From: Candidatus Hydrogenedens sp.
Lineage (GTDB): Bacteria > Hydrogenedentota > Hydrogenedentia > Hydrogenedentales > Hydrogenedentaceae
Direction: 5' to 3'
NCBI GenBank assembly: GCA_049968235.1
Contig: JBMFRC010000009.1
Coordinates: 1-64,000 of the forward strand
Length of the DNA: 64,000 bases
A program made the position numbers and the translations under genes. Below are positions 3,001 to 37,477 of this stretch, in pieces; the first letter of the stretch is position 1; every line of letters starts with the position of its first letter. Under the pieces are notes generated by a model. The model made no database searches and was not told the DNA's origin. It was given only the letters and a program-made list of their open reading frames with translations.

Positions 3001-3687
3001 AGTCACAATATTCATGTGAGAGAAAGAACTCATTACACTTACCGAGGTAGAGCCAGCATCAATAATTCCGGCAAGCCCTCCAAAATTATATTTTGCCGTA
3101 GGGTCAAAATTCTGCCATGTAAGTTGACCTATTGTGTAACACATATCTATTCCCATATCGGTTAATGAAGGATGGATAATACCTGCAATACCTCCACAAT
3201 TTGAAGATGCCTGTATGGAACCGGATACTATACACCCTTCCATTTCTCCTCCTTCAACCAATCCAGATATACCTCCGACTATGGACTTCCCGCTTATGTT
3301 CACATCCAATAATTTTAAATTTTTAATTGAACCTCCCTCTATATAACTAAATAATCCAACATAGGTTTCTCCCGGTCTATCTATGTAAAGATTGGAGATT
3401 ATGTAACCATTACCATCGAAAGAACCTTTAAAATGACCTGTAGCAGTAAAATCTCCGATAGGGTCAAAACCACCGGGCCAGGTTGCTGTGTCAGAAGCGT
3501 CAATATCATCTGTCAGGATATAATCCGCATCTAATGGTGTTAATACGCCTATATTTCCCAAATCATTTAATGTCGAAATGGGAATAGGTGCGGAGTGAGC
3601 AAATAGCGGAGAAAAAATAATTAATAACACACAAAAAAATGTGTAATAATTTAAACCTATCCCTGCTTGAAAAGTTTTGTTTTCCAT
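1..3687 (-). CDS. Giant secreted GLUG-motif repeat protein (N-terminal ~1229 aa; C-terminus lies beyond the window start). Not in the ORF track because the ORF runs off the window.
   Basis: Open minus-strand frame from ATG at 3687-3685 to the window edge. N-terminal signal peptide (MENKTFQAGIGLNYYTFFCVLLIIFSPLFAHS). At least three degenerate ~400-aa repeats, each with a D/NIDASDT..W..G.GF.PI..F.G.F.GNGY.I..LYI..P module, then multiple GLUG-like (VGGLVG/IGGLIG/FGGLAGI) motifs, ending in W(D/E)F...W.INE...YP(F/L)L. Confidence 0.8.
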   Translation of the reverse strand, partial: MENKTFQAGIGLNYYTFFCVLLIIFSPLFAHSAPIPISTLNDLGNIGVLTPLDADYILTDDIDASDTATWPGGFDPIGDFTATGHFKGSFDGNGYIISNLYIDRPGETYVGLFSYIEGGSIKNLKLLDVNISGKSIVGGISGLVEGGEMEGCIVSGSIQASSNCGGIAGIIHPSLTDMGIDMCYTIGQLTWQNFDPTAKYNFGGLAGIIDAGSTSVSVMSSFSHMNIVTSISDMNYVGGLVGRLANKVYIEKCYSVGEVPNGSVGIGGLIGYANNPDYVDASVWDIKTSRQTESSGGTGYNTAEMKNPDTYINMGWEISTEPCINCSTVWSIYKEISYPFLCDLSNLIPNVTRYDVSTAIKNLIESGFNPVELVPLYHNTIPPGQVVETVPEKDCYFPYAGGVSIKYSIGPYPPIYISTIEQLQLIGNDPNYPADNIYILNNDIDASATRGWNGGRGFIPIEEFSGVLDGDGHKISGLYISDISGEPTGLFRTIKKPNGDFGRVSNLIIENVEIYGYAPVGVLAGKIESPPEPEITSTLQNIATSGEVFGLNSVGGLAGIIYGGISVYDCSIRANINAIEISKSKIDYANFGGVCGYDVGCYISRVSYMGAIRSGRGNNFGGIAGYTTIDPTSGSTPTIYNCYAHASIQNSNPLSRNIGGLIGFADVNTELDNSYSASDFSTPASAGGLIGDGNAPIAVNNSFWDKDKSGVSTSFGGGTPETTENMKKASTFAGWDFANVWNINETISYPLLKNDLIIMTNLQNWYYVRAEDWLAFYGLSSSIVTQCHNVIPEDFVISQSVSSQEWIKVFHPDPVILTIANGLCPPIGINSINQLAQIGKSPVYPIDGNYSLTNNIDASDTINWNSGAGFEPIQNFTGIFAGNGYLIFDLYINRPSQDYVGFFGFVEDTGRIYDVYISKANITGRGAVGILAGENRGVIHNCGVHGTVVGNNSFTGGLVGNNAGLIYESFGVAQVRGTYNVGGLIGTISSTLFMDSNHDNYFWGTVYGYGNVGGFIGHNRGYIENSYAVALITVDKGILGGFCASNEVGGSIDFCYWDKEYSGIETSDGGEGKTTAEMMSETTFSAWDFLSKWKINEGVTYPFLQNDYYTYIGDFRGLVYNTLINNLSNGGYFISSTERCDWSYPAGIIVEQTPINLDLPRFSNIDFVVSLGLCTTVPYLVGDTLVNAINEIHSAHLEVGSVVEECNTYPLGVVFEQYPVSGEIVVQGT

Positions 3688-3885
3688 TTATAGCCCTTTC
3701 TCATTTAGTTTAGATTAAAAAACACACAACCCAGACGCAACTTACATTTATAATATAACATATTTATCACAAAAATTTTGCTTTTTTTGTAAATTGAAAA
3801 TTTTTTATATTGCATAATTTATAAAAAAAAGGATTGTAACTAAATGTTTCTTAATTAAAATGTATTATTACTTACTCAGGTTTCT

Positions 3886-3920
3886 AAAAAAAGTGCCGTC
3901 GGTTCTTTTGAACCGACGGC
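3886..3920 (-). terminator. Rho-independent terminator read on the minus strand (11-bp perfect stem GCCGUCGGUUC / GAACCGACGGC, 4-nt loop, then U7 on the minus strand)
   Basis: Plus-strand sequence aaaaaaagtGCCGTCGGTTCttttGAACCGACGGC. Sits ~200 nt upstream of the giant-protein start. Confidence 0.7.
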
Positions 3921-4175
3921 AAGGGTATATTTTATACCCTCTGCACTACCCTCTTAGTTTGGGGAGCGAAATGTAAGGGAAGATGAGATTTTGGTTTGTT
4001 TTGGAATCGGTTGATTTAAAGTGAGGAATGGAAGGGATTATAAAGCCGGAAACACCATTTTAAGAGCCCACTGGGGAGCAAGCCGCAGCCCTTGTTAAAT
4101 TTTACTTGTTCCAGCGGGCTCTTCATTATTAATCAAAACTCCACTCCTTCCTCAGGAGTCCCGCTTATTTTATTC
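3886..4175 (-). ncRNA. Candidate structured RNA / cis-regulatory leader (unclassified) in the divergent intergenic region
   Basis: Several stable hairpins (3895-3920; 3923-3939; 4143-4159). A 13-bp long-range stem 4062-4074/4111-4123 has one G.U wobble only when read on the minus strand. Minus-strand intrinsic terminator at the 3' end. No match I can assert to tmRNA, RNase P, SRP or 6S conserved motifs. Confidence 0.35.
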
Positions 4176-4297
4176 AATTGTTGTATCTTTTAAATAGCAA
4201 TATATATGCCATAGTTATACATAAATTATAATCTATTGTTATTTAGTATCTTATGTAAAAAATATAAATTCTTAAAATTGGAAATATGATATTGTTT

Positions 4298-4333
4298 TCC
4301 CAATTTGGGAATGCCTTGTTTCCCATTTTGGGA
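4298..4333. promoter_or_regulatory. Two copies of an imperfect palindrome TCCCA-N3-TGGGA (4298-4310, 4321-4333), 23 bp centre to centre, upstream of the sigma54-EBP start; candidate operator
   Basis: Direct reading: tCCCAatTTGGGAa and tCCCAtTTTGGGAa. Lies in the non-coding-looking N-terminal extension of the six-frame ORF. Confidence 0.35.
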
Positions 4334-4393
4334 AAAATAAAAATTGATTTATCTATCTTTTTATTGTATTCTATTAATAAAGGATATTTAACC

Positions 4394-6277
4394 ATGTCAT
4401 ATAAAGAAAATGAAAAGAAAATAAGATTTATTATTACAGCGCGTTCAGGATATATAAAAGGGAATGCGTGGGTTATTCCTGAAGATGGGGAATTAAATAT
4501 AGGTCGAGACCCGACATGTTCGATAATTATTGATGACCCACTTATCTCAAGGCATCATTGCCAGTTGTTTATTAGGGGTGATGAACTAATTATTCGTGAT
4601 TTGGGGAGTAGTAATTCAACATTTGTAAATGGGCATCCTATAAAAGAGAAGGTTCTTCATTCTGGAGATGATATAGGCGTGGGTAGTATTGTTTTTTCTG
4701 TGGGGACGGTAATTCCAGAAGGTAGTGTTACGGGAGATGAGACCAAGAAACTTCGAGCAACACGTCCTATAAAGATTGGTGCTCCTGTGTTTATTGAAGG
4801 GTCTCCACAAAATTTATTTGAAACCGGTAATCCACGTACTGCGGAAGACCTTGCAGGACTTTTTTTGCTTGCCCGTCAGTTAAGTCAATTATTTAAGGTG
4901 GAAGATATTATTAACCATGTATTAAAAGTAGTTCAGGAACGATTCAATCCGAATATTTATTGTTTAATTCAATTTACTCAGGACCCTTCCCAAAACTTTA
5001 TTTATCCTAAAAACGCAACACAAGCCATCACTTCAAATCCACAATTAATACAACTATTATCTCAAATTCGTGAGATGCCACGTGGGGTGCTTTATCCTGA
5101 AAGATTTTATAAGAATGGAGAAACGGTTATTCGCAATACAGTAATTGCTCCTATAGCCCTTGGGAAAGAAGTGATTGGTGCGTTAGTAATGATGGCAGAT
5201 ACACCACATCGATTTTATGAAGAAGCGGATTTAGAATACTTGTTAGCAATGGCACATACATTGGCTCCTTACCTTCGTGCTGCAGAGCGTATGCAACAAT
5301 TAGAATGGGAGAATCAAAGGCTAATTTCCGGAGGTATAAATTTTGACCCATTAATAGGGGAAAGCAAAGCCATACAAAAAGTTCGTTCACTTGCACGTGA
5401 TTGTGCCCATTCAGACCTTTGTGTTTTAATTTTGGGAGAGACAGGCACCGGGAAAGAACTGGTTGCTCGTCTTATTCATAATCTTTCTTACCGTTCTCAA
5501 AAAAAATTGGTAGTTGTGAATTGTGCGGCTATTCCTGAGGAACTTTTTGAAAGTGAACTTTTCGGGCATGAAAGAGGTGCTTTTACAGGTGCTCATGCTA
5601 CCAAAATAGGACTGATGGAAGAAGCCAATAATGGAACATTGTTTCTTGATGAAATTGGTGACCTCAGTCTGAATCATCAGGCACGACTCCTCCGTGCTAT
5701 TGAAACAGGAACATTTAGACGCATCGGTGGAAGTTCTGATATTCGTGTGGATGTGCGAGTTTTGTGTGCTACGAACAAAGATTTACCCTCTGAAGTCAAT
5801 GCGGGTCGGTTTAGAAGAGATTTGTTTCATCGATTAAATGCTTTTGTAATATCAATTCCACCTTTACGCGAACGCATTGAGGATATTCCTTTACTTGCAG
5901 ATTATTTCCTGCAACAAGTTCGACGAAAGTATCCTGTTCGGGCTACCCGATTTTCATCGCAATCTTTGAAATGGCTTCAAAATCAACCGTGGCATGGCAA
6001 TGTGCGTGAATTGCGTAATCTTATTGAACGCGCATCCATCGTTGCTAAAAGTGAGGAAATACAACCCCAGGATTTGGTTTCGGAGTTAACTGTCTATATC
6101 CCCGAAAAATTTCCTACCCTGGAAGAACTTGAAAAAGCCCATATTATTAAAGCATTACAACAGGCACAGGGAAATGTCGTTTCTGCGGCAGAAATGTTAG
6201 GCATAGGTAAAAGCACCCTTTATCGCAAACTTGCAGAGTATCGAATTAATTCTTCTACCTATTTAAATATGAAATAA
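4394..6277 (+). CDS. Sigma54-dependent transcriptional activator with N-terminal FHA domain, GAF-like domain, AAA+ sigma54-interaction domain and C-terminal Fis-type HTH
   Basis: FHA signature (NIGRDPTCSIIIDD...SRHHCQLF...IIRDLGSSNSTFVNG). Walker A GETGTGKE. GAFTGA motif. ESELFGHERGAFTGA. C-terminal HTH (QGNVVSAAEMLGIGKSTLYRKL). Start chosen at ATG 4394 (RBS AAAGGA 9 nt upstream); ORF-track codons 4286-4393 look non-coding. Confidence 0.85.
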   Translation: MSYKENEKKIRFIITARSGYIKGNAWVIPEDGELNIGRDPTCSIIIDDPLISRHHCQLFIRGDELIIRDLGSSNSTFVNGHPIKEKVLHSGDDIGVGSIVFSVGTVIPEGSVTGDETKKLRATRPIKIGAPVFIEGSPQNLFETGNPRTAEDLAGLFLLARQLSQLFKVEDIINHVLKVVQERFNPNIYCLIQFTQDPSQNFIYPKNATQAITSNPQLIQLLSQIREMPRGVLYPERFYKNGETVIRNTVIAPIALGKEVIGALVMMADTPHRFYEEADLEYLLAMAHTLAPYLRAAERMQQLEWENQRLISGGINFDPLIGESKAIQKVRSLARDCAHSDLCVLILGETGTGKELVARLIHNLSYRSQKKLVVVNCAAIPEELFESELFGHERGAFTGAHATKIGLMEEANNGTLFLDEIGDLSLNHQARLLRAIETGTFRRIGGSSDIRVDVRVLCATNKDLPSEVNAGRFRRDLFHRLNAFVISIPPLRERIEDIPLLADYFLQQVRRKYPVRATRFSSQSLKWLQNQPWHGNVRELRNLIERASIVAKSEEIQPQDLVSELTVYIPEKFPTLEELEKAHIIKALQQAQGNVVSAAEMLGIGKSTLYRKLAEYRINSSTYLNMK

Positions 6278-10256: not shown

Positions 10257-11099
10257 ATGTCGGATTCTTCCTATGCTCCAGACCGTTCACAGTTATATCA
10301 TATTCGACTTGTGAAAATTTTAGGACAGGGAGGAACGGGAATTGTATATCAAGGAATTGATACCAAGAAAGGAAATGCGGTTGCAGTAAAATTATTCCGT
10401 GAGAATTTTTTCAGGAATAGACTGCATCTTATGGACCTTGTCCAGAATGTTAAGAAGTTTAAAAAACTGAAACACCAAAATCTTGTTCAGATATTTGATT
10501 TTATTGATGGGGATGAAGGTCGGTGCATGTTAATGGAGTTCGTAGATGGACCTAACCTCCGATGGTATCTTACAAATCGTCCCTGGAATTTGCAAGAACG
10601 AGTAAATATTATAATTCAAATTTGTATTGGTTTACAGTTTCTTCACGATAATGGTTTTGTCCATCATGATTTTAAACCTGCGAATGTATTATTTACACGG
10701 AGAGGTATTGTTAAGATTGCGGACTACTCTTTGTTCGGGAATAATTTTATATTGGAATTACTGGACCGAAGTGTCAGTCAGCAAATTACACCTATGTTTG
10801 TTGCTCCGGAAGTGATTCGCGGGGAAAGGGTAACTCCTAAATCAGATTTATATTCTCTGGGTGTTACAATGTATATGATGTTTACAGAAAAATTACCTTT
10901 TCCTGTAGATAATTTACAACAATTGTATCATTGCCATTTGAATTTATTGCCTGAACACCCAACAAATGTAAATCCCAAATGTCCATTTGCGTTAGGTAAT
11001 GTAATTATGAAACTCCTCTCTAAAAAACCAGAAAACCGTTATCGTGATTGTGATGAATTACGAATTGCTTTGTCTAATGTAACTCAAAGTAGAATTTAA
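10257..11099 (+). CDS. Minimal Ser/Thr protein kinase (kinase domain only) with variant catalytic motifs (HHD for HRD; DYS for DFG)
   Basis: G-loop GQGGTGIVY, VAVK lysine, HHDFKPANVL catalytic loop, IADYSLFG, APE (VAPEV). No sensor or TM domains. Confidence 0.75.
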   Translation: MSDSSYAPDRSQLYHIRLVKILGQGGTGIVYQGIDTKKGNAVAVKLFRENFFRNRLHLMDLVQNVKKFKKLKHQNLVQIFDFIDGDEGRCMLMEFVDGPNLRWYLTNRPWNLQERVNIIIQICIGLQFLHDNGFVHHDFKPANVLFTRRGIVKIADYSLFGNNFILELLDRSVSQQITPMFVAPEVIRGERVTPKSDLYSLGVTMYMMFTEKLPFPVDNLQQLYHCHLNLLPEHPTNVNPKCPFALGNVIMKLLSKKPENRYRDCDELRIALSNVTQSRI

Positions 11100-34772: not shown

Positions 34773-35513
34773 TTAACCTTTGTTTTTGGGTCCGGGAACA
34801 ACCCATGTATCATTTGCAGGAATGTAAAGTAGCTCGACGGATTGTTGGTCGCCGATTACCCGAACTATACGAAGTTTCGCTGATTCTTTTTGTTTTGTCT
34901 GTGGATTTACAGGCTCATAAAATTCTTCACCTTCACGGACTTTAAAATTTTCTGTTTTATTTGTTTTTGTATCCGTTACAGTAAGGAATACATATAAATC
35001 ATTTTCTGCTTGAAGAAAACCTGTAACTTCGACACGAGGTCGAGAGAGCATAAGTTCTGCCCGTTCTTTTAATCGAGCATATTTCCCATCCGGTGCTGAC
35101 GCGCCAGGCCTCAAAACATCATAAATATTTATTCCAGCGATAACTAATGCCCATCTCTGTTTGTCCCTTGCCTGCCTTATTGTTTCTTCAATGTCCGGCG
35201 CAATTCGACTCATGGCTATTTTGCCATTCTCAATGGCAGAATATTTCGCTTTGATACCGCGGAAATTATTTACAATTGTATCCTGCTGGTCCTGTGGAAG
35301 ACGGCTATTATTCACAACCGCATCTATCCATGGTTGAATTGCAGAACGCATTTCAGATTGTATTTGTTCTGGACTTGGGGGGGGAGGTTCTTGTGGAGGA
35401 GGGGGGGGAGGTGGTGGTTTAGAGCAGTTTATAGTAGAAAGAGAAATAATTCCAATTGTAATAAGTATAAATGCATAAGAAAATCGTTTTAAAGACAGAT
35501 TCCTTTTCTTCAT
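34773..35513 (-). CDS. Hypothetical lipoprotein with poly-proline stretch (PPPPPPPPQEPPPPSP)
   Basis: Signal peptide with Cys (LSTINCSK). Contains two G8/C8 homopolymer tracts in the Pro-coding region. Confidence 0.55.
   Translation of the reverse strand: MKKRNLSLKRFSYAFILITIGIISLSTINCSKPPPPPPPPQEPPPPSPEQIQSEMRSAIQPWIDAVVNNSRLPQDQQDTIVNNFRGIKAKYSAIENGKIAMSRIAPDIEETIRQARDKQRWALVIAGINIYDVLRPGASAPDGKYARLKERAELMLSRPRVEVTGFLQAENDLYVFLTVTDTKTNKTENFKVREGEEFYEPVNPQTKQKESAKLRIVRVIGDQQSVELLYIPANDTWVVPGPKNKG
35377..35408. repeat. Two G8 (coding-strand C8) homopolymeric tracts within the lipoprotein poly-Pro codons
   Basis: gggggggg at 35377-35384 and 35401-35408. Unusual in a ~40% GC genome. Confidence 0.6.
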
Positions 35514-37321: not shown

Positions 37322-37461
37322 GAATATTTGCGAATTTATTAGACCGCAGAAAAGAAAAAATTTCCTTTGAAAAGGGAAAAAAATATCTTTGTTTTCAAAT
37401 ATGAAAAAAGTGAGTTTGATTAAGTAATTGATTTTTAAGTAGATATGAAAACTTATCTATG

Positions 37462-37477
37462 TGGCATATCATTTGCT
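37462..37477 (+). promoter_or_regulatory. Sigma54 (RpoN) promoter: TGGCAT-N5-TTGCT (GG-N10-GC) ~37 nt upstream of flgB
   Basis: tGGcatatcatTTGCt matches the -24/-12 consensus TGGCAC-N5-TTGCW in 10/11 positions. Confidence 0.65.

What the first reader, a model, noticed from the sequence alone, without database searches (positions are those of the whole stretch)
3886..4175. ~300-nt highly structured non-coding element with minus-strand intrinsic terminator, 200 nt upstream of the giant GLUG-protein gene
The divergent intergenic region contains a perfect 11-bp terminator hairpin followed by U7 when read on the minus strand, a 7-bp hairpin beside it, a 6-bp hairpin at 4143-4159, and a 13-bp long-range helix (4062-4074 with 4111-4123). 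The single non-Watson-Crick position in that helix is an A-C mismatch on the plus strand but a G.U wobble on the minus strand. This argues that the functional molecule is a minus-strand RNA. It could be a riboswitch or attenuator leader controlling the giant secreted protein, or an independent sRNA. I could not match it to tmRNA, RNase P, SRP, 6S or common riboswitch consensus motifs from memory.
Basis: seen in the sequence. Interest (0 to 1): 0.55.

Follow-up and report, generated by a model that had tools for sequence, protein, structure and literature searches.

The report
Sigma-54-driven small RNA beside its activator
The structured element is real and is most likely a new ~300-nt regulatory small RNA of the uncultured bacterium Candidatus Hydrogenedens. 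It appears to be transcribed from a sigma-54 promoter switched on by the activator protein encoded next door, and it is not a leader of the giant GLUG-protein gene.

Summary

- **Promoter.** A canonical sigma-54 promoter, TGGCAT-N5-TTGCT (4211..4196, minus), lies about 12 nt upstream of where conservation begins.
- **Activator sites.** Two perfect palindromes, TTCCCA-N3-TGGGAA (4297-4311 and 4320-4334), are centred about 100 and 123 bp upstream of the promoter. They lie directly in front of a divergent gene for an FHA/GAF-like sigma-54 activator (4394-6277).
- **Conservation.** Promoter, palindromes, RNA and activator gene co-occur in all 14 related Hydrogenedens loci (10 distinct sequences).
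- **Downstream gene.** The gene after the RNA switches between a GLUG protein and ATP sulfurylase, and the GLUG gene has its own conserved promoter.
- **Selection and structure.** The RNA is better conserved (75-90%) than third-codon positions of the activator gene (48-64%). Base pairs covary in the long-range helix and the terminator, and there is no conserved ORF and no Rfam match.

The best reading is an independent small RNA that depends on sigma-54 and the neighbouring activator, with the same architecture as Qrr/LuxO or CrcZ/CbrB. It is a new RNA family of a known kind. Its targets remain unknown.

The parts
4320..4334 (.). Distal upstream activator site: perfect palindrome TTCCCATTTTGGGAA, centred about 123 bp upstream of the sigma-54 promoter centre.
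   Evidence: The half-sites TTCCCA/TGGGAA are invariant in all 14 related loci, with a constant 23-bp spacing to the proximal site. These are the only two matches in 64 kb, even with up to 1 mismatch allowed.
4297..4311 (.). Proximal upstream activator site: perfect palindrome TTCCCAATTTGGGAA, centred about 100 bp upstream of the promoter.
   Evidence: The distance from the promoter to this site is constant (84-86 bp edge to edge) in all loci, although the spacer sequence itself is only 49-77% identical.
4196..4211 (-). Sigma-54 promoter, -24/-12 type: TGGCATATATATTGCT (GG-N10-GC).
   Evidence: 2 matches in the window against 0.08 expected. The other match sits directly upstream of flgB-flgC-fliE. 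TGGCAT and TTGCT are invariant in all 14 loci while the N5 varies.
3886..4185 (-). Predicted ~300-nt non-coding RNA, from the inferred start (about 12 nt after the -12 GC) to the end of the terminator U-run.
   Evidence: The block of conservation begins at ACAACAATTGAATAAA, right at the predicted start, and ends at the T-run. There is one copy per locus, no conserved ORF and no Rfam match. Identity is 75-90%, against 48-64% at third-codon positions of the neighbouring gene.
4169..4184 (-). 5' tail ACAACAAUUGAAUAAA, nearly invariant (one substitution, in L011) and predicted to be single-stranded.
   Evidence: one substitution in 11 sequences; mean unpaired probability 0.64-0.92.
4161..4166 (-). 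P1 5' strand, AAGCGG. It pairs with CCGMUU at 4005-4010 and closes the 5' domain.
   Evidence: the duplex is present in all homologues at -5.7 to -10 kcal/mol. C-G becomes U.G in L003, L014 and L015. The window copy has one mismatch (-4.5 kcal/mol).
4143..4159 (-). Hairpin H1, ACUCCU-GAGGA-AGGAGU. The stem is invariant and the loop differs only in L005. Its 3' half belongs to the GA-rich stretch GAGGAAGGAGUGGAG (4153-4139).
   Evidence: 6 pairs that never vary, so there is no covariation evidence either way.
4111..4123 (-). 5' strand of the long-range helix H2 (AAGAGCCCGCUGG).
   Evidence: One pair shows UA/AU/CG, two independent compensatory changes. One pair alternates between G.U and A-U. 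The remaining pairs are invariant.
4062..4074 (-). 3' strand of the long-range helix H2 (CCAGUGGGCUCUU). The enclosed apical region, 4075-4110, is nearly invariant: AACAAGUAAAAUUUAACAAGGGCUGCGGCUUGCUCC.
   Evidence: -27.8 kcal/mol.
4021..4038 (-). CU-rich linker (AUCCCUUCCAUUCCUCAC). It can pair with the GA-rich 5' stretch (helix P2) as an alternative to H1.
   Evidence: The P2 duplex is -11 to -20 kcal/mol in every homologue, against -8.1 kcal/mol for H1 computed in the same way. The linker sequence varies but stays complementary.
3969..4006 (-). Conserved, accessible single-stranded region UUCCAAAACAAACCAAAAUCUCAUCUUCCCUUACAUUU. This is the candidate seed for pairing with targets.
   Evidence: nearly invariant in 10 of 11 sequences, diverged in L011; mean unpaired probability 0.60-0.87 against 0.41-0.50 overall. 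UCCC motifs number 4-7 per RNA against about 1 expected in 9 of 11 sequences.
3944..3968 (-). Hairpin H3: CGCUCCCC...GGGUAGUG.
   Evidence: 6 invariant pairs including a constant G.U. It is weak on its own (-2.8 kcal/mol).
3921..3941 (-). Hairpin H4: GAGGGUAUA-AAA-UAUACCCUU.
   Evidence: 97.5% of cells paired, with G.U/G-C alternation at the closing pair.
3886..3920 (-). Intrinsic terminator: GCCGUCGGUUC-AAAA-GAACCGACGGC, then CAC and U7.
   Evidence: -23.1 kcal/mol; three pairs carry compensatory double changes (UA/CG, GC/AU/GU, UA/CG). A U-run is present in all homologues.
4394..6277 (+). Divergent gene for the sigma-54 activator. Domains: FHA, a GAF-like region, an AAA+ sigma-54 interaction domain with the GAFTGA motif, and a Fis-type HTH.
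   Evidence: translation, GAFTGA present. Pfam Sigma54_activat 4e-68, FHA 1e-20, HTH_8 1e-14. GAF_2 at 1e-5, below the Pfam cut-off; no NCBIfam equivalog reached. It lies next to the RNA in 14 of 14 loci.
3752..3760 (-). Extended -10 promoter-like element TGTTATATT for the GLUG gene (ATG at 3687). It shows that the GLUG gene has its own promoter and is not part of the RNA.
   Evidence: TGnTATAaT is conserved upstream of the GLUG orthologues in the window, L009, L011 and L004/L012, whichever side of the module the gene sits on.

Best explanation
The region encodes an independent, non-coding RNA of about 300 nt on the minus strand (about 4185 to 3886).

**Transcription.** The RNA is made by sigma-54 RNA polymerase from the -24/-12 promoter TGGCAT-N5-TTGCT at 4211-4196. 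Sigma-54 promoters are silent unless an AAA+ enhancer-binding protein acts on them. Here the activator is almost certainly the FHA / GAF-like / AAA+ / HTH protein encoded divergently at 4394-6277. It would bind as dimers to the two palindromes TTCCCA-N3-TGGGAA, centred 100 and 123 bp upstream, and loop over to the promoter.

**Termination.** Transcription ends at a strong intrinsic terminator (12-bp stem plus U7).

**Architecture.** The RNA has a single-stranded conserved 5' tail, then a 5' domain closed by P1. That domain contains a GA-rich segment that can form hairpin H1 or pair with a CU-rich linker, and the covarying long-range helix H2 with a nearly invariant apical region. Next comes a roughly 40-nt conserved accessible CU/CA-rich stretch, then two small hairpins and the terminator.

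**Inferred, not shown.**
- The input signal reaches the activator through its FHA domain (phospho-threonine, Ser/Thr kinase) and/or its GAF-like domain.
- The RNA then acts in trans. It most likely base-pairs through its exposed C-rich (UCCC) motifs and 5' tail with ribosome-binding regions of target mRNAs.

**Shown here.** The sequence features, their conservation, the covariation and the synteny. Transcription, activator binding and targets were not tested.
For: **Promoter.**
- The strict sigma-54 pattern occurs twice in 64 kb against 0.08 expected.
- The second copy precedes flgB-flgC-fliE, a classical sigma-54 operon, which validates the consensus for this organism.
- GG and GC are invariant in all 14 related loci while the N5 varies.
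- Sequence between the -12 element and the predicted start is variable. Conservation resumes exactly at the predicted +1.

**Activator sites.**
- The two perfect palindromes are the only ones in the window.
- They are invariant in their half-sites, 23 bp apart, and 84-86 bp from the promoter in every locus.
- The spacer between them and the promoter is only 49-77% identical.
- Tandem palindromic sites about 100 bp upstream are the norm for these activators (PMC6296734, PMC11407668).

**Activator.** Pfam finds Sigma54_activat, FHA and HTH_8, and the GAFTGA motif is present.

**Synteny.**
- The RNA and the activator gene are adjacent in 14 of 14 loci spanning 76-95% activator identity.
- Neither flank beyond them is conserved: the downstream gene is GLUG or sat, and gatCAB follows the activator only in the closest relatives.

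**RNA.**
- Fold z-score is -5.4 on the minus strand.
- 98.9% of cells are paired against about 45% for slid controls.
- Four pairs carry compensatory double changes, and the covariation score was reached by 0 of 500 shuffles.
- G.U pairs occur only when the minus strand is read.
- Identity of 75-90% exceeds the 48-64% at third-codon positions of the neighbouring gene.
- Indels are not multiples of three and no ORF is conserved.

**Terminator.** -23.1 kcal/mol with a U-run in all homologues.

**GLUG gene.** It has its own conserved promoter.
Against: - There are no expression data: the start site, the 3' end and the existence of the transcript are all inferred from sequence.
- Covariation is limited. 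Only 10 distinct sequences from one genus-level clade were available, and helices H1, H3 and the inner H2 stem never vary, so they are unsupported either way.
- rpoN was not seen in the 64-kb window, although two sigma-54-type promoters and an activator with GAFTGA imply it exists in the genome.
- No target could be identified. Complementarity to translation-initiation regions in the window, to the activator mRNA and to the GLUG leader is no better than for shuffled sequences.
- The putative seed region is substantially diverged in one homologue, L011.
- Read-through of the terminator into the downstream gene cannot be excluded.
Confidence: 0.72

Rival explanations
1. The element is a cis-acting 5' leader or attenuator. 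The sigma-54 promoter would really drive the downstream protein gene (GLUG here), and the structured RNA with its terminator would be a riboswitch-like or protein-controlled attenuator that decides on read-through.
For: - The terminator lies 199 nt upstream of the GLUG ATG on the same strand.
- A gene always follows on the same strand in the relatives.
- A GLUG-family gene is nearly always within one gene of the module.
- The GA-rich segment has two mutually exclusive pairings, H1 and P2.
Against: - The downstream gene is not conserved. It is GLUG in the window, L009 and L001/7/8, and ATP sulfurylase in L002-L005 and L010-L015.
- The distance from terminator to gene varies from about 80 to about 355 nt.
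- GLUG orthologues keep their own extended -10 promoter and leader even when they sit on the other side of the activator gene.
- No sequence able to compete with the terminator stem was found. Only a 4-6 nt ACCG/CGGU match exists, and it is already used by P1.
- There is no riboswitch hit in Rfam.
Confidence: 0.1
2. The transcription unit is the same (a sigma-54/activator-driven small RNA), but the RNA works as a protein sponge rather than by base pairing. It would titrate an RNA-binding regulator, as CrcZ does for Hfq/Crc or RsmZ/CsrB for CsrA.
For: - There are four AACAA-type A-rich motifs in predicted single-stranded places: the 5' tail ACAACAA, the H2 loop GAACAAG and UAACAAG, and AAACAAACC.
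- GGA motifs cluster in the 5' part (GAGGAAGGAGUGGAG, CUGGAAC), and one sits in the invariant H1 loop GAGGA.
- Conservation of unpaired nucleotides is higher than that of the stems.
- CrcZ sets a precedent as a sigma-54/CbrB-dependent sponge (PMC6296734).
Against: - Only one GGA is presented in a hairpin loop, and there is no repeated stem-loop array as in CsrB or RsmZ.
- The A-rich motifs do not match the AAnAAnAA repeat strictly.
- No hfq or csrA gene lies in the window (uninformative for the whole genome).
- No Rfam hit to CrcZ, RsmY/Z or CsrB.
Confidence: 0.15
3. The element is not an RNA at all. The conservation would reflect DNA-level regulatory sites or a small protein-coding gene.
For: - The region is intergenic and next to a regulator gene.
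- The window copy contains a 36-codon ATG ORF.
Against: - 300 nt of continuous conservation is bounded exactly by a promoter and a terminator.
- There are compensatory changes and a strand-specific G.U pattern.
- The 36-codon ORF loses its start or its frame in most homologues, and indels of 1-2 nt occur.
Confidence: 0.03

Closest known systems
Qrr small RNAs with LuxO (Vibrio)
   Same: - The small-RNA gene is transcribed from a sigma-54 promoter.
- It is activated by an NtrC-family enhancer-binding protein bound at paired sites about 100 bp upstream (PMC11407668, PMC4878744).
- From my own knowledge, qrr1 lies next to and divergent from luxO, and the qrr genes are essentially the only LuxO targets. 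That mirrors the finding that the palindromes occur only here in the window.
   Different: - Qrr RNAs are about 100 nt with four stem-loops and are Hfq-dependent; this RNA is about 300 nt with a different fold.
- There is no match to the Rfam Qrr model.
- LuxO is a phospho-accepting response regulator, whereas this activator has FHA and GAF-like sensor domains.
- The binding-site sequence differs.
CrcZ/CrcY with CbrB (Pseudomonas)
   Same: - A small RNA of several hundred nt, directly activated by a sigma-54 activator (PMC6296734).
- From my own knowledge, crcZ lies next to cbrB.
- A-rich unpaired motifs are present in both.
   Different: - CbrB sites are non-palindromic sub-sites (PMC6296734), whereas here there are perfect palindromes.
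- CrcZ has 5-6 strict AAnAAnAA motifs and sponges Hfq/Crc. That function is untested here and the motifs are looser.
- No Rfam CrcZ match.
GlmY/GlmZ with GlrR, NrsZ with NtrC, Pxr (Myxococcus): other sigma-54-dependent small RNAs (from my own knowledge)
   Same: - Sigma-54 promoter plus a cognate activator, often encoded nearby.
- A discrete terminated transcript.
   Different: - All the known activators are two-component response regulators.
- There is no sequence or structure similarity and no Rfam hit.
C-rich (UCCC-motif) base-pairing small RNAs of Firmicutes such as RsaE/RoxS (from my own knowledge)
   Same: Several exposed UCCC/CCCUU motifs could pair with G-rich Shine-Dalgarno sequences. 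UCCC is enriched 4-7-fold in 9 of 11 homologues.
   Different: - No homology: the Rfam RsaE model does not match.
- Promoter type and size differ.
- The targeting mechanism is not tested here.

Membership tests
Sigma-54 (RpoN)-dependent transcription unit | A -24/-12 promoter with GG-N10-GC (consensus TGGCAC-N5-TTGCW) correctly placed upstream of the transcript. | tested here: met
   TGGCATATATATTGCT at 4211-4196. The pattern occurs twice against 0.08 expected. It is invariant in 14 loci. Conservation of the RNA starts about 12 nt after the GC.
Sigma-54 (RpoN)-dependent transcription unit | A cognate AAA+ enhancer-binding protein with the GAFTGA motif and a DNA-binding HTH. | tested here: met
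   The adjacent gene at 4394-6277 has Sigma54_activat (4e-68), HTH_8 and FHA. GAFTGA is present in the translation.
Sigma-54 (RpoN)-dependent transcription unit | Upstream activator sites (usually tandem palindromes) about 80-150 bp upstream. | tested here: met
   Two TTCCCA-N3-TGGGAA palindromes, centred about 100 and 123 bp upstream, are conserved with fixed spacing. Actual binding is not testable here.
Sigma-54 (RpoN)-dependent transcription unit | Transcription abolished without RpoN or without the activator. | not testable with these tools
   Needs genetics or in-vitro transcription. rpoN is not in the 64-kb window.
Rho-independent (intrinsic) terminator | A G+C-rich stem-loop followed directly by a U-run on the transcribed strand. 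| tested here: met
   A 12-bp stem with 8 G-C pairs and U7, at -23.1 kcal/mol. Three pairs covary.
Qrr (RF00378), CrcZ, GlmY/GlmZ, NrsZ, Pxr, RsmY/Z, CsrB, RsaE, 6S RNA and any other Rfam 15 family | A match to the family covariance model at or near its gathering score. | tested here: not met
   No hit at gathering thresholds in the whole window. At E<=10 in 3600-4450, and E<=5 in four homologous loci, only chance-level hits to unrelated families appear.
CsrB/RsmZ-type CsrA sponges | Many (at least 5-20) GGA motifs presented in the loops of repeated hairpins. | tested here: not met
   Five GGA motifs cluster in the 5' 80 nt, but only one is in a hairpin loop (H1, GAGGA). There is no repeated hairpin array.
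CrcZ-type Hfq/Crc sponges | Several unpaired AAnAAnAA (CA) motifs. | tested here: inconclusive
   Four AACAA-containing unpaired stretches are conserved, but they do not fit the strict repeat, and presence of the protein partner is unknown.
Riboswitch or transcription-attenuator leader | Constant association with the regulated downstream gene, and an alternative antiterminator pairing. | tested here: not met
   The downstream gene alternates between GLUG and sat. GLUG has its own promoter. No competing pairing with the terminator arm was found.
Trans-acting base-pairing small RNA | A conserved accessible seed and demonstrable conserved complementarity to target mRNAs. | tested here: inconclusive
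   A conserved unpaired tail and a roughly 40-nt region exist. No target scored above shuffled controls in the 64-kb window or the fetched loci. Whole genomes are needed.

The most novel reading that the evidence does not exclude
The RNA would be the sole direct output of a signalling pathway in which a eukaryote-like Ser/Thr kinase acts on an FHA-domain sigma-54 activator. That would be the first small RNA whose transcription is wired to phospho-threonine/FHA signalling rather than to a two-component response regulator. It would control cell-surface or motility functions in an uncultured phylum; candidates are the giant secreted GLUG protein that always travels with the module, or the sigma-54 flagellar regulon.
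Probability: 0.25. Interest if true: 0.65.

Novelty: new member of a known kind. Interest (0 to 1): 0.5.

Why it matters
- **A new RNA family.** It adds a family absent from Rfam 15, in Candidatus Hydrogenedens (Hydrogenedentota, former NKB19). A full-text search for small-RNA work on this phylum found nothing relevant.
- **An unusually complete predicted circuit.** Sensor-activator, enhancer sites, sigma-54 promoter, RNA and terminator are all identifiable, and the circuit can be rebuilt and tested in a heterologous host.
- **Wider reach for a known design.** The design of a sigma-54 activator with a dedicated small RNA encoded next door would extend beyond Proteobacteria.
- **A different kind of input.** As far as I know, every other sigma-54-dependent small RNA depends on a two-component response regulator. 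This activator instead senses through FHA and GAF-like domains.
- **A practical annotation marker.** The fixed motifs TGGCAT-N5-TTGCT and TTCCCA-N3-TGGGAA can be used to annotate this lineage.

Tried and rejected
1. **Rfam.** Gathering and permissive E-value searches of the window and four homologous loci gave only chance hits: rli38, Ref84 and AfaR, which match the terminator or the palindromes, plus mir-576 and rox1.
2. **Sigma-70 promoter for the RNA.** The scan found TTTAAA-16-TAAAAT at 4194..4167. Neither hexamer is conserved in the relatives, so it was rejected in favour of the sigma-54 promoter.
3. **Coding potential.** The 36-codon ORF in the window copy is not conserved.
4. **Target prediction.**
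   - The best duplex in the window (-40 kcal/mol at 35376-35421) is a G-rich run antisense to a Pro-rich coding stretch, and shuffled seeds do as well.
   - Seed k-mers are not enriched in translation-initiation regions.
   - There is no conserved pairing with the activator mRNA or with the GLUG leader.
   - A 9-nt match between the window's GLUG leader (AAAUGUAAG) and the RNA's CUUACAUUU is not conserved in the other GLUG leaders.
5. **Paralogues.** nhmmer found a single copy per locus and none elsewhere in the window.
6. **Distant FHA-GAF sigma-54 activators.** P0006 and P0031, fetched as loci L016 and L017, have no comparable RNA, promoter or palindromes.
7. **Looking up the window's GatB** to find the source contig: not on record.
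8. **Viral contigs.** A scan for an invariant 20-mer found nothing.
9. **Hfq, CsrA and RpoN.** tblastn found none in the window, which says nothing about the whole genome.
Full report
**Observation.**
- On the minus strand there is a 12-bp G+C-rich stem (3921..3894) with a 4-nt loop followed by seven U (3892-3886), at -23.1 kcal/mol.
- A neighbouring hairpin lies at 3941-3921, and a 6-bp hairpin, ACUCCU-GAGGA-AGGAGU, at 4159-4143.
- A 13-bp long-range helix pairs 4123-4111 with 4074-4062. Its only non-Watson-Crick pair is G.U on the minus strand and A.C on the plus strand.
- The minus strand folds far better than dinucleotide shuffles (z = -5.4). The plus strand gives z = -2.95.
- The element is a G+C island (0.40-0.44) in a spacer of 0.21-0.27 G+C.
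- The neighbours are a secreted GLUG/PASTA protein gene that starts at 3687 on the minus strand and runs off the window, and a plus-strand gene at 4394-6277.

Three things define the unit.
- *Promoter.* Reading the minus strand upstream of the element gives TGGCATATATATTGCT (4211..4196), a textbook sigma-54 promoter (GG-N10-GC). The strict pattern TGGCAY-N5-TTGCW occurs only twice in the window, against 0.08 expected. The other copy (37462-37477, plus strand) sits immediately upstream of flgB-flgC-fliE. That operon class is sigma-54-dependent in many bacteria, so the consensus is independently validated for this organism.
- *Activator sites.* Centred about 100 and 123 bp upstream of the promoter are two perfect palindromes, TTCCCAATTTGGGAA (4297-4311) and TTCCCATTTTGGGAA (4320-4334). 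They are the only matches in 64 kb. Tandem palindromes about 100 bp upstream are the usual binding architecture of sigma-54 activators (PMC6296734, PMC11407668).
- *Activator gene.* The divergent gene at 4394-6277 encodes such an activator. It has an FHA domain, a GAF-like region below the Pfam threshold, an AAA+ sigma-54 interaction domain with the GAFTGA motif, and a Fis-type HTH. It does not reach the cut-off of any named NCBIfam equivalog.

**Relatives.** The N-terminal part of the activator retrieved 5 loci from genomes and 9 from metagenomes.
- Four of the five genome records carry only generic MAG or Nitrospirales labels or a bare genus name; the first is titled Candidatus Hydrogenedens terephthalaticus.
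- Activator identity ranges from 76 to 95%.
- All 14 loci carry a homologue of the element in the same place and orientation, giving 10 distinct sequences.
- In every one the TGGCAT and TTGCT blocks and both palindromes are intact. The palindromes are 23 bp apart and 84-86 bp from the promoter. The spacer between them is only 49-77% identical to the window.
- The 9-10 nt after the -12 element vary freely. Conservation resumes at ACAACAATTGAATAAA, exactly where a sigma-54 transcript should start (about 4185), and runs without interruption to the terminator U-run.
- The RNA region is 75-90% identical to the window. Third-codon positions of the adjacent activator gene are 48-64% identical, so the RNA region is under purifying selection.
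- Indels of 1-2 nt occur and no ORF is conserved, which rules out a small protein.

**Structure.** RNAalifold and pair counting support the following.
- *Long-range helix H2.* One pair is seen as U-A, A-U and C-G, and one alternates between G.U and A-U.
- *Terminator.* Three pairs carry compensatory double changes.
- *Overall.* 98.9% of cells are paired against about 45% when partners are slid. The covariation score was reached by 0 of 500 shuffles.
- *Strand.* 39 cells are G.U on the minus strand and would be A.C on the plus strand. This agrees with the positions of the promoter and terminator.
- *Unvarying helices.* H1, H3 and the inner H2 stem never vary, so comparative data neither support nor contradict them.
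- *Additional pairings.* Per-sequence folding suggests two more. P1 (AAGCGG with CCGCUU) closes the 5' domain and is present in all homologues. The GA-rich stretch GAGGAAGGAGUGG can also pair with a variable but always complementary CU-rich linker, as a more stable alternative to H1.
- *Unpaired conserved regions.* These are the 5' tail, the A-rich apical loop of H2, and a roughly 40-nt CU/CA-rich region (3969-4006) with unpaired probability 0.60-0.87. UCCC motifs occur 4-7 times per RNA against about 1 expected in 9 of 11 sequences.

**Leader or independent RNA?**
- The gene after the terminator is a GLUG protein in the window, L009 and L001/7/8, but ATP sulfurylase in all other loci.
- In most of those other loci a GLUG-family gene lies downstream of the activator gene instead.
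- GLUG orthologues carry the same extended -10 promoter (TGnTATAaT), a conserved leader motif (YAGGGYTGTGTGT) and the same ribosome-binding site, whichever side they are on. They are therefore transcribed on their own.
- The only constant partner of the RNA is the activator gene.
- I found no antiterminator alternative to the terminator stem.
- A dedicated riboswitch or attenuator of the GLUG gene is therefore unlikely.
- The persistent proximity of a GLUG gene to the module is unexplained and may hint at a functional link.

**Mechanism.**
- *Supported by sequence and comparison.* The unit is an enhancer-dependent sigma-54 transcription unit whose product is a terminated, structured, non-coding RNA of about 300 nt.
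- *Inferred.* The neighbouring FHA/GAF-like activator binds the palindromes and switches the RNA on in response to a phospho-threonine or small-ligand signal. A Ser/Thr kinase gene lies at 10257-11099. The RNA then acts in trans.
- *Mode of action.* The conserved accessible C-rich stretch and 5' tail favour base pairing with ribosome-binding regions. The A-rich and GGA motifs leave a protein-sponge role open.
- *Targets.* None could be found with the sequence available.

**Comparison with known systems.**
- The architecture matches Qrr/LuxO, CrcZ/CbrB, GlmY/GlrR and NrsZ/NtrC: a sigma-54-dependent small RNA controlled by, and often encoded beside, its activator.
- It is not a member of any of those RNA families or of any other Rfam 15 family.
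- The RNA is longer than Qrr and folds differently.
- Its activator senses through FHA/GAF-like domains instead of a receiver domain.
- A full-text search for small-RNA work on Hydrogenedentes found nothing relevant.

**Verdict.**
- The strand assignment and the small-RNA alternative are supported. The GLUG-leader reading is not.
- This is a new RNA family belonging to a known kind of regulatory unit, currently seen only in one genus-level clade.
- Interest is moderate. The circuit is unusually complete and testable, but transcription, activator binding and targets all remain to be shown.

Noticed in passing
window 37462-37477 (+), with 37363-37381: A second strict sigma-54 promoter, TGGCATATCATTTGCT, lies about 40 nt upstream of flgB. 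It is followed by flgC, fliE and what appears to be a flagellar gene cluster reaching to about 52 kb; only flgB, flgC and fliE were read, and the later ORFs were not checked. An inverted repeat, TTTCCTTTGAAAAGGGAAA, lies about 90 bp upstream of it. That repeat could be an activator site or the terminator of the preceding GNAT gene.
   Followed up: partly
window 3721-3760 (-); L009, L011, L004 and L012 upstream of their GLUG genes: GLUG orthologues share a conserved extended -10 promoter (TGnTATAaT), a 5'-UTR motif YAGGGYTGTGTGT and the ribosome-binding site GAAAGGG. The function of the leader motif is unknown, and no convincing pairing with the small RNA was found.
   Followed up: partly
L003/L010, L004/L012, L011, L014/L015 compared with the window, L009 and L001/L007/L008: A GLUG-family gene is almost always within one gene of the RNA-activator module but changes sides. 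It is downstream of the RNA in the window's clade and downstream of the activator gene in the others, where ATP sulfurylase follows the RNA.
   Followed up: partly
L001 (AWNW01000066.1) compared with L008: In L001, gatA-gatB-rsfS and the kinase gene lie on the RNA side. In L008, which is identical across the RNA region and has the same activator identity to the window (95%), gatC-gatA follow the activator gene as in the window. This is either a rearrangement or a chimeric contig.
   Followed up: no
window 4366-4374 (+), GTATTCTAT; equivalent positions in L001-L005: A conserved block lies just upstream of the activator ATG, with TTGATT (4344-4349) 17 nt before TATTCT (4367-4372). It is probably the activator gene's own sigma-70 promoter, abutting the palindromes, which would suggest autoregulation. 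In L001, L009, L005 and L014 the block is also complementary to the small RNA's 5' end AUACAACAAU, but not in the window copy.
   Followed up: partly
L017 1400-1910: A distant FHA-GAF sigma-54 activator (P0031) has three TATCC-N5-GGATA palindromes upstream of its own gene. This is an analogous but different set of enhancer-like sites.
   Followed up: no
window 10257-11099 (+): A Ser/Thr protein kinase gene lies on the same strand, about 4 kb downstream of the FHA-domain activator gene and after gatCAB and rsfS. It is a candidate source of the phospho-threonine signal. This linkage is seen only in the closest relatives.
   Followed up: partly
window 35376-35421 (+): A G-rich run (GGGGGGGGAGG...GGAGGAGGGGGGGGAGGTGGTGG) lies antisense to a proline-rich stretch of the minus-strand ORF 34773-35513. 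It produces spurious strong duplexes with any C-rich RNA.
   Followed up: yes
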